Shown here one piece after another: positions 20,601-62,539 of a DNA stretch of 64,000 nucleotides. The first letter of the stretch is position 1. Each line of letters opens with the position of its first letter. Both the position numbers and the translations under genes were made by a program. The DNA comes from an uncultured Candidatus Saccharibacteria bacterium (GTDB lineage: Bacteria; Patescibacteriota; Andersenbacteria; UBA10190). Under the pieces are notes generated by a model. It had not been told where the DNA came from and made no database searches. It saw only the letters and a list, made by a program, of their open reading frames with translations. The DNA lies in contig CAYJKV010000003.1 of NCBI GenBank assembly GCA_964371255.1, forward strand, positions 86,901 to 150,900. Reading direction: 5' to 3'.

Positions 20601-20760
20601 CATACCAACCGGAGTTAATTCCTGCTATATTCCACACTTATCCTTCTCCCTGCCTCGCCCCGCCGTTGGCGGGGATAAAGGGGCCTGCCTGCCGGTAGGC
20701 AGGGATTGATGGGGTTTGGTCGTCACCGGCATAGCAGACATTAAGTTCGGTTGGTATCAG
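20601..20760. mobile_element. MITE-like element copy A (about 160 bp, about 31-bp imperfect terminal inverted repeats ATACCAACCGRAGTKAATTCCTGCTATATTCC ... GGCATAGCAGACATYAARTTCGGTTGGTAT)
   Basis: Terminal inverted repeats seen directly. The GC-rich hairpin core contains the CCTGCCTGCCGGTAGGCAGG palindrome. A second copy lies at 22449. Confidence 0.7.
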
Positions 20761-54658: not shown

Positions 54659-54730
54659 GGCCTCTTCGTCTAGCGGCTAGGACATCAGGTTCTCATCCTG
54701 GAAACAGGGGTTCGATTCCCCTAGAGGCTA
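54659..54730 (+). tRNA. tRNA-Glu (CTC)
   Basis: Manual fold: acceptor GGCCTCT/AGAGGCT, D-arm GTCT-AGCGGCTAG-GACA, anticodon stem CAGGT/ATCCTG region with loop containing CTC, T-arm AGGGG-TTCGATT-CCCCT. Confidence 0.75.
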
Positions 54731-55317
54731 CAAGCATTAATGAATACACACCGTCATTTGATGGTGTGTATTCATTATGGCCGAAGGCTATTTGGGGAAT
54801 CGAAGGGTATTCTAAAAACGTAAACTGCTTTACGTTTTTAGAAACCCGGGCTTCGGGGGAGTAAAATTGCCTCGAGCGCAGCGAGTGCAATTTTGCGGGG
54901 GAGAAGGATTCCCCTAGAGGCTACATCAAAAATACCTCCGCTTGCGGGGGTATTTTATGATGTTTTCTTAAGAATGAATCGAACGGTATTTCGAGAAGAT
55001 GAACTACTTTATCTTCGAGAAAACCGTGGCTGCGAAGCCTGCCTGCCGGCAGGCAGGGAGGAGTGAGTAATGTACCGTAGGTACGAAGCGAACGACGGAG
55101 GAGCAGGATTCCCCTAGAGGCTGCCAGCCTAAACAATAGACCGCTCTCATTTGAGAGTGGTTTATTGTTATGCACACAGTGCATCCGGGGAATCGAAGGG
55201 TATTCCAAAAACGTAAATAGTTTTACGTTTTTAGAAACCCAGGCTCCGCAGGAGGAGCGCAGCATCGAACGAATGTGAGCGCTGCGCGACGGGTGAAGAG
55301 AATTCCCCTAGAGGCTA
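54715..55317 (+). repeat. tandem array: four copies of the tRNA-Glu 3' terminus (ATTCCCCTAGAGGCTA) at 54715, 54908, 55108, 55302, separated by three hairpin-rich units of about 177-184 bp
   Basis: Direct sequence identity of the 16-19-nt repeats. Units 1 and 3 are about 70% identical. All three units share GAATCGAAsGGTATT - hairpin - AAACC with compensatory changes in the hairpin. Confidence 0.8.
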
Positions 55318-55438
55318 CTAGACAATAGACCGCTCTCAGTACTGTCTGCCCGCATCACAAACACCATTAAAGATCCACCTTTGCGCATCTTTTGCTCCTG
55401 CGTTTCACCAAATCTGCTTTTCATAATAGAATTAGAAG

Positions 55439-61964: not shown

Positions 61965-62539
61965 ACACCGCCATTCTCACCCCATAGCATTTTTGCCTTG
62001 GGGTTTTTATTATTTCGCCAAAATAAGCGCGCTCCGCGTAGCGGAGCCGCGCATTTTGAGCGAAAGAATAACCCTGCCTACCGGCACAGGCAGGCCCGTA
62101 ACAACATTGCCGTCCCTATTTAATTAGTGCTTTTCTTTAGTCAAAAACCATATTTAATTCTAGCGCCAGGCTTGCCTACCGGCAGGCAGGCGCGGGCTGA
62201 ATAAGCCCACCCCTTTGTGGGCGCAGCCTGGCGCCGTAATGAGCCTCGCAATGTTCGTTACTGGGGTAGGTCCATCGCCAAAAAGACTTGCTCCGCGAAG
62301 CGCAGTCGCATTTAGTGCCAAATCATCACCCTGCCGGAGCCCTCAGTTTGTCGCTTTTCGACTTGGCCCCAAGTAACTCTGCGCTTATCGAAGAGTTGAA
62401 GGGCGCAGTAGGGAATAGTTGTAATATTGAAACGTGTCGCCTTCGGCGTCCTTTTGCGTTCTGACTAAATCAATAATCCGCCTCTAGCGGACTGCCTGCT
62501 TCGAACGAAGCGCACTCTTTGGTTCTTGGCGTATTTCAC

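What the first reader, a model, noticed from the sequence alone, without database searches (positions are those of the whole stretch)
54659..55320. Tandem array of four tRNA-Glu 3'-end copies spaced about 195 bp, with co-varying hairpin units: att-scar array or a new tRNA-linked structured-RNA array
The last 16-19 nt of tRNA-Glu (gATTCCCCTAGAGGCTa) recur three more times downstream (54908, 55108, 55302) at 193-200-bp spacing. The three intervening units are each about 180 bp and packed with hairpins. Units 1 and 3 are clearly homologous: a 15-bp stem opens each (TAATGAATACACACC...GGTGTGTATTCATTA versus AACAATAGACCGCTCTC...AGAGTGGTTTATTGTT), there is a conserved GGGGAATCGAAGGGTATTC, and a 13-bp hairpin CTAAAAACGTAAA-ctgc-TTTACGTTTTTAG. 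Unit 2 keeps the flanks GAATCGAAcGGTATT and AAAACC but has a different hairpin (GAAGATGAA-ctac-TTTATCTTC), so the stem is preserved by compensatory change, which argues for selection on RNA structure. The conserved GGGGAAT(CGAA) is the exact complement of the repeated ATTCCCC (and of the tRNA T-loop TTCGATTCCCC), so each unit can pair with its flanking repeat. Unit 2 also contains the dispersed palindrome GCCTGCCTGCCGGCAGGCAGGG. This is neither a CRISPR array (spacers too long and homologous) nor ordinary satellite DNA. The main options are serial integrase-mediated insertions at the tRNA 3' end leaving attL/attR scars, or an array of small tRNA-primed/tRNA-mimicking structured RNAs. A type IV pilin-LamG gene follows immediately.
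Basis: seen in the sequence. Interest (0 to 1): 0.8.

Follow-up and report, generated by a model that had tools for sequence, protein, structure and literature searches.

The report
tRNA-anchored structured RNA cassette array
Behind a glutamate tRNA gene of an uncultured CPR bacterium sit three diverged copies of an uncatalogued, strongly folded non-coding module of about 120 nt, each ending in a copy of the tRNA's last 18 bases; the same module sits behind tRNA genes in many other CPR bacteria and looks like a small cassette gained and lost at tRNA 3' ends.

Summary
tRNA-Glu(CTC) lies at 54659-54731, and its last 16-18 nt recur at 54907, 55107 and 55301 (0.05 expected by chance). The tract is 100% identical in six independent assemblies. 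The units are not inert att scars and not a CRISPR array. Each unit is a terminator-like hairpin, then a 120-140-nt module, then a copy of the tRNA 3' end. A pattern scan of metagenomes found the same module in 28 contigs (19 further distinct sequences). Sixteen of the 19 lie on the same strand just downstream of a tRNA with the T arm GGGGTTCGATTCCCC (mostly Gly-TCC, also Glu-TTC, Gly-CCC, Ala-GGC). In 14 of them the bases after the module match that tRNA's own 3' end through its last base. All members fold as one three-way junction with heavy compensatory variation. Nothing in Rfam 15 matches. No integrase lies nearby, and no copy occurs in viral, phage or plasmid collections. Orthologous murF-tRNA-Glu loci of the relatives lack the module. 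Two 95%-identical modules sit in unrelated contexts. The three window units each resemble foreign modules more than each other. Best reading: a new family of tRNA-sense small structured RNA cassettes gained and lost at tRNA 3' ends. Function and enzymology remain inferred.

The parts
54659..54731 (+). tRNA-Glu(CTC); no encoded CCA; T arm GGGGTTCGATTCCCC. Its last 18 nt (54714-54731) are repeat copy 1.
   Evidence: ARAGORN; Rfam tRNA 59 bits, E 1.6e-11.
54738..54777 (+). Hairpin T1 (TAATGAATACACACC / GGTGTGTATTCATTA), lying between the tRNA and module 1.
   Evidence: Sequence; part of inverted repeat I1.
54794..54914 (+). Module 1. P1a 54794-54801, junction GAA, P2 54805-54847, P4a 54851-54854, purine loop GGGGGA/GGGGGA, P3 54861-54896, P4b 54903-54906, P1b 54907-54914.
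   Evidence: MFE -55.3 kcal/mol, z -6.3; cmsearch 130.7 bits; alignment A2.
54907..54924 (+). Repeat copy 2 of the tRNA 3' end (GATTCCCCTAGAGGCTAC). Its first 8 nt are P1b of module 1.
54929..54956 (+). Hairpin T2, an intrinsic-terminator-like hairpin followed by a T-rich tail.
   Evidence: The only site passing the terminator scan.
54972..55114 (+). Module 2, the most diverged. P1 is shortened to GAAUC/GAUUC. The base of P2 is CGGU/ACCG, a compensatory swap relative to GGGU/ACCC. It carries an extra hairpin, the dispersed palindrome at 55037-55058.
   Evidence: MFE -52.3, z -3.7; cmsearch 103.5 bits; pair 15-58 CG:1.
55107..55124 (+). Repeat copy 3 (GATTCCCCTAGAGGCTGC).
55132..55169 (+). Hairpin T3 (AACAATAGACCGCTCTC / GAGAGTGGTTTATTGTT; two G-T pairs on the + strand).
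   Evidence: Sequence.
55186..55308 (+). Module 3.
   Evidence: MFE -48.5, z -5.0; cmsearch 120.7 bits.
55301..55338 (+). Repeat copy 4 (AATTCCCCTAGAGGCTAC) plus a second copy of the left arm of T3 only (CTAGACAATAGACCGCTCTCA). It has A at T-loop position 57, as in the tRNA-Glu of the related species.
   Evidence: (D3).

Best explanation
The tract is tRNA-Glu(CTC) followed by three tandem, mutually diverged members of an uncatalogued family of structured non-coding modules, each 120-140 nt.

Architecture. Each module folds as a three-way junction. The closing helix P1 pairs a 5' 'anti-T-arm' (GGGGAAUC, followed by GAA) with a 3' copy of the T-loop and T-stem (GAUUCCCC). P2 is a long A/U-rich hairpin whose loop is often AACUGCUU. 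P4 is a 4-bp helix (CUYY/RRAG). Next comes a conserved all-purine internal loop (GRAGGA / GGRKGA). P3 is a variable G+C-rich hairpin. Directly after P1 the DNA continues with the acceptor 3' strand of the neighbouring tRNA. The module therefore ends in a copy of tRNA positions 57-73/74.

Shown: the family, its fold, its tRNA linkage, its patchy distribution, and a better fold in tRNA sense.

Inferred, step 1: it is made as a small RNA in tRNA sense, either read through from the tRNA or started at an A/T-rich box just upstream.

Inferred, step 2: it is an accessory cassette gained and lost at tRNA 3' ends by recombination through the 8-11 nt it shares with the T arm. The enzyme acts in trans and is unidentified. 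Each gain leaves an intact tRNA and a copy of its 3' end on the far side. The window array then records three gains, or gains plus unequal crossing-over between the copies, oldest farthest from the tRNA.

Inferred, step 3, weakest: the RNA acts as a mimic or decoy of the tRNA 3' end, or as a tRNA-binding RNA.
For: Reality and stability.

Family: a pattern that left P2, P4 and P3 free found 28 metagenome contigs, giving 22 distinct modules including the 3 here. cmsearch scores are 87-139 bits.

Structure: RNAalifold and 22 single-sequence folds agree. 96.7% of cells are paired. Fourteen pairs change on both sides. 66 compensatory cells compare with 20.4 in shuffles (0/500), and slid controls give at most 64% paired and at most 9 such cells. 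L099 and L122 differ by two double compensatory changes. Fold z-scores for the window units are -6.3, -3.7 and -5.0.

Strand: the tRNA-sense fold is more stable in 19 of 22 modules (mean -3.9 kcal/mol, p 0.0003; 32 G-U pairs against 15).

tRNA linkage: the module is always downstream and on the same strand as Gly-TCC, Gly-CCC, Glu-TTC/CTC or Ala-GGC. The tail follows each genome's own tRNA, including the two variable positions after CCCC in 9 of 9 Gly loci.

Accessory or mobile behaviour: the module is absent from the orthologous murF-tRNA-Glu loci of the related species sampled, L088-L095, L125-L127 and L130; the orthologous locus L128/L129 has neither a tRNA-Glu nor a module. Among the other CPR tRNA-Glu genes with this T arm at murF loci, L020 carries only a divergent unit and L034 and L064 carry none. 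A 126-nt stretch at 95% identity is the only DNA shared by L099 and L122. The window units are nearer to foreign modules (0.85, 0.83, 0.75) than to each other (0.63-0.77), and in bootstraps the nearest neighbour is a window unit in at most 2.7% of replicates. L118 has an extra degenerate unit that its orthologue L105 lacks.

Other points: the distal copy 4 carries A57, like the relatives' tRNA-Glu, whereas the tRNA itself now has G57. The site is a hot spot: a serine-recombinase element sits there in L088. Nothing in Rfam 15 reaches E 10 apart from the tRNA and chance-level matches far below their gathering scores.
Against: No transcript data exist.

P1 never varies in the set because the search pattern fixed it, so P1 is supported by energy only.

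The -10-like A/T box ends 1-4 nt before GGGG, which would start transcription inside P1.

G-U against A-C counts in the alifold pairs alone are even.

No recombinase, transposase or reverse transcriptase was found in the window or next to any module.

In L098 the repeat is 57 nt and includes the tRNA's own terminator, and in the window copies 3 and 4 share 42 nt. Both fit target duplication, or unit duplication followed by deletion, better than an element-borne replacement end.

The A57 argument rests on one base that could instead be the module's junction nucleotide.

Some modules lack a tRNA or a matching tail (L109, L122, L120, L099), so the tail is not obligatory.

The neighbour analysis uses only about 100 constrained columns.

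The tail has no specific partner inside its own module, so its role is unexplained.
Confidence: 0.55

Rival explanations
1. These are resident 'sibling' small-RNA genes that are not mobile. An old chromosomal sRNA gene borrowed the 3' end (T-arm half, acceptor strand, sometimes the terminator) of the adjacent tRNA gene. The array arose by local slippage between the tRNA's GATTCCCC and the module's own GATTCCCC. Tails are kept like the tRNA by gene conversion or by selection.
For: Neighbours are housekeeping genes (HU, FtsH, IF-3, YraN-like) and the synteny tRNA-Pro, tRNA-Gly, module recurs. Slippage between the two 8-mers automatically creates a module-tail junction. Partial second units (L098 57-nt repeat, window copy 4 with half of T3, L118, L099) look like decayed duplicates. 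A terminator-like hairpin follows the tail in about half of the loci, as for ordinary sRNA genes.
Against: The window units are not each other's closest relatives. The module is absent from every orthologous locus of relatives that was sampled. A 95%-identical module sits in unrelated contexts. Module similarity cuts across tRNA type (L098 Gly against L114 Glu, 0.90). An 8-nt identity is short for gene conversion.
Confidence: 0.2
2. This is a DNA-level element: a miniature non-autonomous integrative cassette whose folded single strand is the recombination substrate (comparable to integron attC or IS200/IS605 ends). A recombinase encoded elsewhere moves it. The RNA, if any is made, is incidental.
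For: Direct repeats flank each unit. Inverted 8-11-nt copies of the T arm lie at both module ends. Tandem arrays of different units occur. The site is used by a serine-recombinase element in relatives. Helices covary while the stems differ in sequence, as in attC sites. G-T pairs would favour one DNA strand just as G-U pairs favour one RNA strand.
Against: Junction and loop nucleotides are highly conserved in sequence (29 invariant columns), unlike attC sites. No GTTRRRY boxes and no IntI, Y1 or other recombinase are nearby. No copies occur in viral, phage or plasmid collections. The right-hand repeat boundaries vary from 8 to 57 nt, which is unlike site-specific recombination.
Confidence: 0.12
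3. This is an RNA-directed insertion element (SINE-like or guide-like). The module RNA finds T loops by base pairing, either its 5' GGGGAAUCGAA with TTCGATTCCCC or its 3' GAUUCCCC with the nicked bottom strand. It is copied in by a polymerase or reverse transcriptase supplied in trans, giving target duplications that start at position 57 and end at variable points.
For: The left repeat boundary is fixed at T-loop position 57/58 while the right boundary varies (8-57 nt). The duplicated segment is always the local tRNA's own sequence, even across tRNA types. The 11-nt complementarity to the T loop is conserved beyond what the module's own P1 needs. The architecture is a scaffold followed by an 18-nt 3' match to a genomic target.
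Against: No reverse transcriptase or nuclease partner was seen. No such element is known in bacteria. The first 8 nt of the 'guide' are sequestered in P1. Modules exist without tRNA tails (L109, L122).
Confidence: 0.08
4. These are inert attL/attR scars left by serial integrase-mediated insertions whose interiors were deleted.
For: Four copies of the tRNA 3' end start in the T loop, which is the classical sublocation for tyrosine integrases (my knowledge: Williams 2002). The locus is an integration hot spot in relatives.
Against: The interiors are complete members of a conserved, covarying family found in 19 other distinct loci. There is no integrase or pseudogene. No homologous sequence occurs in viral, phage or plasmid sets.
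Confidence: 0.03

Closest known systems
tRNA-gene integration sites of integrative elements, including tandem arrays (CIME/ICE accretion; Prochlorococcus tycheposons, bioRxiv 10.1101/2020.12.28.424599, seen but not read in depth)
   Same: Direct copies of the tRNA 3' end start in the T loop. The tRNA stays intact. Several units lie in tandem at one tRNA. Relatives use the same tRNA for a recombinase-bearing element.
   Different: Units are only about 190 bp, carry no gene, and have no integrase nearby. The interior is a conserved covarying fold, not att arms. Repeat length is variable and sometimes includes the host terminator.
Integron attC cassette arrays
   Same: Arrays of structured elements whose helices covary. 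Inverted short boxes close the fold. The terminal hairpin is variable.
   Different: There are no R/L boxes (GTTRRRY) and no IntI. Junction sequence is highly conserved. The 'cassettes' between modules are only hairpins. The array is anchored to a tRNA.
Sibling sRNA gene arrays (for example LhrC1-5, OmrA/B; from my own knowledge)
   Same: Several diverged copies of a structured sRNA of about 100-150 nt lie in tandem, some with their own terminator.
   Different: Each copy ends in a copy of the neighbouring tRNA's 3' end. The family is spread over many CPR lineages at different tRNAs. Copies in one array are not each other's closest relatives.
tRNA mimics: tmRNA, bacterial Y RNA (YrlA; PMC4201824, title and abstract only), viral tRNA-like structures
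   Same: They contain tRNA-derived 3' sequence (T-loop half, T-stem strand, acceptor strand). The 5' and 3' ends pair.
   Different: There is no complete T arm, no acceptor helix (the tail has no partner) and no tag ORF. ARAGORN and Rfam do not recognise the modules.
Scaffold-plus-3'-guide RNAs of mobile elements (TnpB omega RNA; CAST homing crRNAs that target tRNA genes; from my own knowledge)
   Same: A conserved structured scaffold is followed by 16-20 nt identical to a genomic target, here the tRNA gene next door.
   Different: There is no TnpB, Cas12k or transposase gene. The guide-like segment is partly base-paired in P1. The scaffold is unrelated to any Rfam family.

Membership tests
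CRISPR array | Short identical repeats (about 23-50 nt) separated by unrelated spacers of similar short length | tested here: not met
   Repeats are 16-18 nt. The 'spacers' are about 175-180 nt and homologous to each other.
CRISPR array | cas genes or a leader nearby | tested here: not met
   Neighbours are murF, a pilin and SOD. No cas domains were found.
att sites / scars of tRNA-integrating elements | Direct repeat of the tRNA 3' end bounding the inserted DNA | tested here: met
   Four copies start at T-loop position 57. The same holds in 15 other loci.
att sites / scars of tRNA-integrating elements | An integrase or recombinase gene (or its remnant) inside or next to the repeats | tested here: not met
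   None was found in the 64-kb window or near any module. Part of the window was judged only by reading translations.
att sites / scars of tRNA-integrating elements | The interior is element DNA found in intact elements, phages or plasmids | tested here: not met
   No match in IMG/VR, INPHARED or PLSDB.
Integron attC array | R''/R' boxes (RYYYAAC / GTTRRRY) and an IntI integrase | tested here: not met
   The closing boxes are GGGGAATC/GATTCCCC. No integrase was found.
Integron attC array | Structure is conserved but sequence is not | tested here: not met
   There are 29 invariant and 23 nearly invariant columns, many of them unpaired.
Any Rfam 15 family (tRNA, tmRNA, Y RNA, T-box, ribozymes, riboswitches) | A covariance-model match at or near the gathering score | tested here: not met
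   Only the tRNA itself passes. The best other matches score under 22 bits with E at least 0.6.
Structured non-coding RNA (generic) | Helices supported by compensatory changes beyond shuffled and slid controls | tested here: met
   P2 and P4 meet this: 14 pairs, 66 cells, 0/500 shuffles. The P3 outer stem differs completely between members yet pairs in each. P1 is invariant and therefore uninformative.
Structured non-coding RNA (generic) | The element is transcribed, with defined ends | not testable with these tools
   Only indirect evidence exists: strand asymmetry of fold energy, an A/T-rich box upstream, and terminator-like hairpins after about half of the tails.
MITE / non-autonomous transposon | Terminal inverted repeats, a fixed-length target duplication, and many dispersed copies per genome | tested here: inconclusive
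   8-bp inverted ends exist (P1). The duplication varies from 8 to 57 nt. Only three copies occur in 64 kb, all at one tRNA. Whole-genome copy number is unknown.
Guide RNA of an RNA-guided mobile element (TnpB/Cas12k type) | An adjacent effector or transposase gene | tested here: not met
   None was found near any of the 22 modules.

The most novel reading that the evidence does not exclude
The module is a self-targeting mobile RNA. It recognises the T loop of a tRNA gene by base pairing and is copied in with a target duplication, making it a bacterial SINE-like or guide-directed element. Alternatively, it is an RNA that supplies or imitates a tRNA 3' fragment (positions 57-73) held on a ribozyme-like three-way junction, for example as a decoy or spare part against tRNA-directed nucleases. 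Either would be a kind of element not yet described in bacteria.
Probability: 0.15. Interest if true: 0.9.

Novelty: new variant of a known kind. Interest (0 to 1): 0.7.

Why it matters
If correct, CPR/Patescibacteria carry a widespread, previously uncatalogued structured RNA that is physically and evolutionarily tied to tRNA genes, in genomes with very few accessory elements. It would add a gene-free, 190-bp class to the elements that use tRNA 3' ends as entry points. It would explain some 'partial tRNA' fragments seen in annotations of these genomes. It would also give a tractable RNA of 120 nt, with a clear three-way junction and an unusual all-purine internal loop, for biochemical work on tRNA mimicry, tRNA binding or RNA-directed insertion.

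Tried and rejected
- Assembly artefact: rejected. Six independent contigs are identical.
- Extra tRNA or tmRNA genes or pseudogenes in the units: none found.
- Protein coding: the 114-aa minus-strand ORF at 54921-55265 has no Pfam hit, and no gene is called there in any assembly.
- Homologues in close relatives by BLAST: none.
- Viral-contig scans: the two-copy pattern and GGGGAATCGAAGGGTATTC gave nothing, and AAGGGTATT...AAACCCNGGCT gave one chance hit, L124.
- Phage and plasmid BLAST: nothing.
- Group I intron in tRNA (PMC13011429): that work concerns anticodon-loop position 35/36 and is not this.
- Tail-to-module pseudoknot, which would give a TYMV-like acceptor stem: a module's own tail pairs no better than foreign tails. 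The Gly-type resemblance CGGGUG:UACCCG is not kept in Glu-type modules.
- Common protein neighbour: none.
- Hammerhead, twister or other ribozyme cores and K-turn: not matched by eye or by Rfam.
- A conserved promoter or terminator for every module: inconsistent between loci.
- Extension of P1a complementarity into the acceptor strand: seen only in L114 (4 nt) and in the inverted fragment of L099, so not general.
Full report
**Observation.** The region holds tRNA-Glu(CTC) at 54659-54731. GATTCCCCTAGAGGCT recurs exactly at 54907 and 55107, and with one mismatch at 55301. Start-to-start spacing is 193, 200 and 194 nt, against 0.05 matches expected in the window. The 896-bp murF-to-pilin intergenic tract is 100% identical in six independently assembled contigs from different samples. 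A seventh contig breaks 38 bp before the pilin gene. The feature is real and stable in that population.

**Context.** The window is chromosomal DNA of a CPR/Patescibacteria bacterium near Candidatus Andersenbacteria (best named MurF relative 66% identical). The order is mraZ, mraW, ftsL-like, PBP, murF, tRNA-Glu, the array, a type IV pilin/LamG gene, a zinc-ribbon gene, and SOD. No integrase, transposase or reverse transcriptase was found in the window (the remainder was judged by reading translations). The murF-tRNA-Glu(CTC) linkage is kept in most relatives sampled (L128/L129 show no tRNA there), but what follows the tRNA differs. L088/L089 have a large serine recombinase plus a primase element abutting the tRNA. 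L130 has an HTH_17/response-regulator island before the same SOD gene. L093-L095 have a GIY-YIG ORF with a duplicated tRNA 5' fragment. The site is a variable hot spot.

**The units belong to a widespread family.** I scanned the metagenome collection with GAATCGAANGGTATT N{25,45} AAAMCC N{55,85} ATTCCCC. This pattern matches all three window units and nothing in shuffles. It returned 28 contigs holding 19 further distinct sequences.
- Sixteen of these 19 lie on the same strand directly downstream of a tRNA gene. Eleven are Gly-TCC, often in the order tRNA-Pro, tRNA-Gly, module. Three are Glu-TTC, one is Gly-CCC and one is Ala-GGC.
- All these tRNAs have the T arm GGGGTTCGATTCCCC.
- In 14 of them the bases after the module's final CCCC repeat that genome's own tRNA through its 3' end; the L099 tail matches for only 10 nt and the L120 tail not at all. 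This includes the two positions after CCCC that differ between species (CT, TT, CC, TC; 9 of 9 Gly loci).
- Neighbouring genes are housekeeping (HU, FtsH, IF-3, a YraN-like gene), with no shared protein partner.

**Structure.** RNAalifold on the 22 sequences and 22 independent MFE folds give the same three-way junction:
- P1: GGGGAAUC pairs with GAUUCCCC.
- An invariant GAA junction follows.
- P2: 15-19 bp, A/U-rich, with a bulged A; the loop is AACUGCUU in most members.
- An NGG junction follows.
- P4: CUYY pairs with RRAG.
- A symmetric all-purine internal loop follows (typically GGAGGA opposite GGGGGA).
- P3: a variable G+C-rich hairpin.

For P1, P2 and P4, 96.7% of cells are paired and 14 pairs carry double changes. 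There are 66 compensatory cells against 20.4 in shuffles (0/500), and sliding the partners drops pairing to 64% or less. P4 switches among C-G, U-A and G-C, including CCGC/GCGG in L109. P1 is invariant because the search pattern fixed it, so it rests on energy alone. The window units fold with z-scores of -6.3, -3.7 and -5.0. Unit 2 keeps the base of P2 through a G-C to C-G swap. Nothing in Rfam 15 matches at E up to 10 except the tRNA and chance-level hits far below their gathering scores.

**Strand.** The tRNA-sense strand folds better than its complement in 19 of 22 modules (mean 3.9 kcal/mol, Wilcoxon p 0.0003), with 32 G-U pairs against 15. This favours a tRNA-sense single strand, most simply RNA, though one DNA strand would show the same bias. 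Within the alifold pairs alone, G-U and A-C counts are even. An A/T-rich, -10-like box (TATAAT, TATAGT and similar) ends 1-4 nt before GGGG in many loci. In L108, L111 and L116 the module follows the tRNA by only 17-19 nt. A terminator-like hairpin follows the tail in about half of the loci. In the window only T2 passes the terminator scan. Transcription is therefore plausible but unproven.

**Accessory or mobile behaviour.**
- The related species with the same murF-tRNA-Glu locus (L088-L095, L125-L127, L130) lack the module; the orthologous locus L128/L129 has neither a tRNA-Glu nor a module.
- Among the other CPR tRNA-Glu genes with this T arm at murF loci, only L020 carries a unit, and it is a divergent type.
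- L099 and L122 share nothing except a 126-nt stretch. It runs from 13 nt upstream of GGGAATC to CCCC and is 95% identical, with two double compensatory changes. One sits behind tRNA-Gly and the other has no tRNA.
- Module similarity cuts across tRNA type: L098 (Gly) against L114 (Glu) is 0.90.
- The three window units are each closer to foreign modules (u1-L101 0.85, u3-L114 0.83, u2-L100 0.75) than to each other (0.63-0.77). In bootstraps the nearest neighbour is another window unit in at most 2.7% of replicates.
- L118 has an extra degenerate unit with a third tRNA copy that its orthologue L105 lacks.
- The relatives' tRNA-Glu has T loop TTCAATT. The window tRNA has TTCGATT, yet the distal copy 4 reads AATTCCCC. 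This would be expected if the native 3' end was displaced downstream. It is one base and could instead be the module's junction nucleotide.

**What the repeats say about mechanism.** The left edge of the repeat is fixed at T-loop position 57/58, which is exactly the three-way junction. The right edge varies: 8-20 nt in most loci, 57 nt in L098/L102 (covering the tRNA's own terminator), and about 42 nt between window copies 3 and 4 (ending in the loop of T3). Some tails have decayed (L103, L106) or are absent (L109, L122, L120). The tail has no specific pairing partner in its own module. These facts fit two mechanisms. One is insertion with duplication of target sequence. The other is unit duplication by slippage between the tRNA's and the module's GATTCCCC, followed by partial deletion. 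They fit a classical element-borne attP core less well. I cannot separate these mechanisms with the data available.

**Verdict.** The array consists of three members of a new family of tRNA-anchored structured modules. I take them to be tRNA-sense small RNAs that behave as gene-free cassettes gained and lost at tRNA 3' ends (confidence 0.55). The rivals are:
- resident sibling sRNA genes with local duplication (0.20);
- a DNA-level recombination substrate (0.12);
- an RNA-directed insertion element (0.08);
- inert scars (0.03).

It is not a CRISPR array, an integron, a known Rfam family or an assembly artefact. Function is unknown. The best guess is tRNA 3'-end mimicry or tRNA binding, and that is inference only.

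**Limits.** The family was collected with an exact-match pattern, so conservation of the patterned blocks is ascertained. No transcript data were available.

Noticed in passing
window 20683-20704, 55037-55058, 62170-62191; L111 module; L024: A 22-nt palindrome GCCTGCCTGCCGGCAGGCAGGG occurs three times in the window (0 expected). One copy lies inside module 2, between P4 and the purine loop. The L111 module carries a related hairpin (CCCGCCTGCTGGTAGGCAGGG) at the same position. It may be a small dispersed palindromic element or an optional extra helix.
   Followed up: partly
L020:7999-8160: A Paceibacterota murF-tRNA-Glu(TTC) locus has a second type of unit. It consists of a terminator hairpin, GGGGAATCGAAGG, a different interior of about 115 nt that also folds as a P1-closed three-way junction (z -6.1), an exact copy of that tRNA's 3' end, and a strong terminator. 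The tip of its second arm (GAAGAACGGAGUGAUGA) resembles the P4/purine-loop core of the main type. The family is therefore broader than the search pattern.
   Followed up: partly
L020:7380-7892: Upstream of the same tRNA, a segment of about 180 nt occurs twice around a 150-nt insert. The segment holds a P2-like hairpin GCAAACUGCUUUGC, then GTGACCGATTCCCTC-GGGAATCGAACC, then the first 22 nt of the tRNA. This is a duplication on the 5' side of the tRNA.
   Followed up: no
L088:7359-12420 (also L089-L091): In the closest named relative (Andersenbacteria) a 513-aa large serine recombinase gene overlaps the 3' end of tRNA-Glu(CTC). A primase-like (Zn_ribbon_DnaG) gene and a DUF5659 gene follow. This is an integrated element at the same tRNA.
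   Followed up: partly
L093:7296-7723 (also L094, L095): The first 15 nt of tRNA-Glu are duplicated about 350 nt upstream of the intact gene. They are separated from it by a G+C-rich structured stretch and a GIY-YIG ORF, which may be a homing-endonuclease or intron remnant.
   Followed up: no
L118:3658-3755; L099:4652-4720: L118 has a second, shortened unit followed by a third copy of the tRNA-Gly 3' end (GATTGCCCCTACCCGCTT). In L099 the module is followed by an inverted 20-nt copy of tRNA-Gly positions 53-72.
   Followed up: partly
window 55319-55438: No terminator-like hairpin separates module 3 and copy 4 from the pilin/LamG gene (start 55439). A promoter-like site lies at 55404-55432, so read-through from the array into the pilin gene is possible.
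   Followed up: no
L007, L002, L006 contig ends: Three of the assemblies that carry this locus break at or next to the array (38 bp before the pilin gene, at the pilin start, and inside the murF 3' end). The repeats may hinder assembly in low-coverage samples.
   Followed up: no
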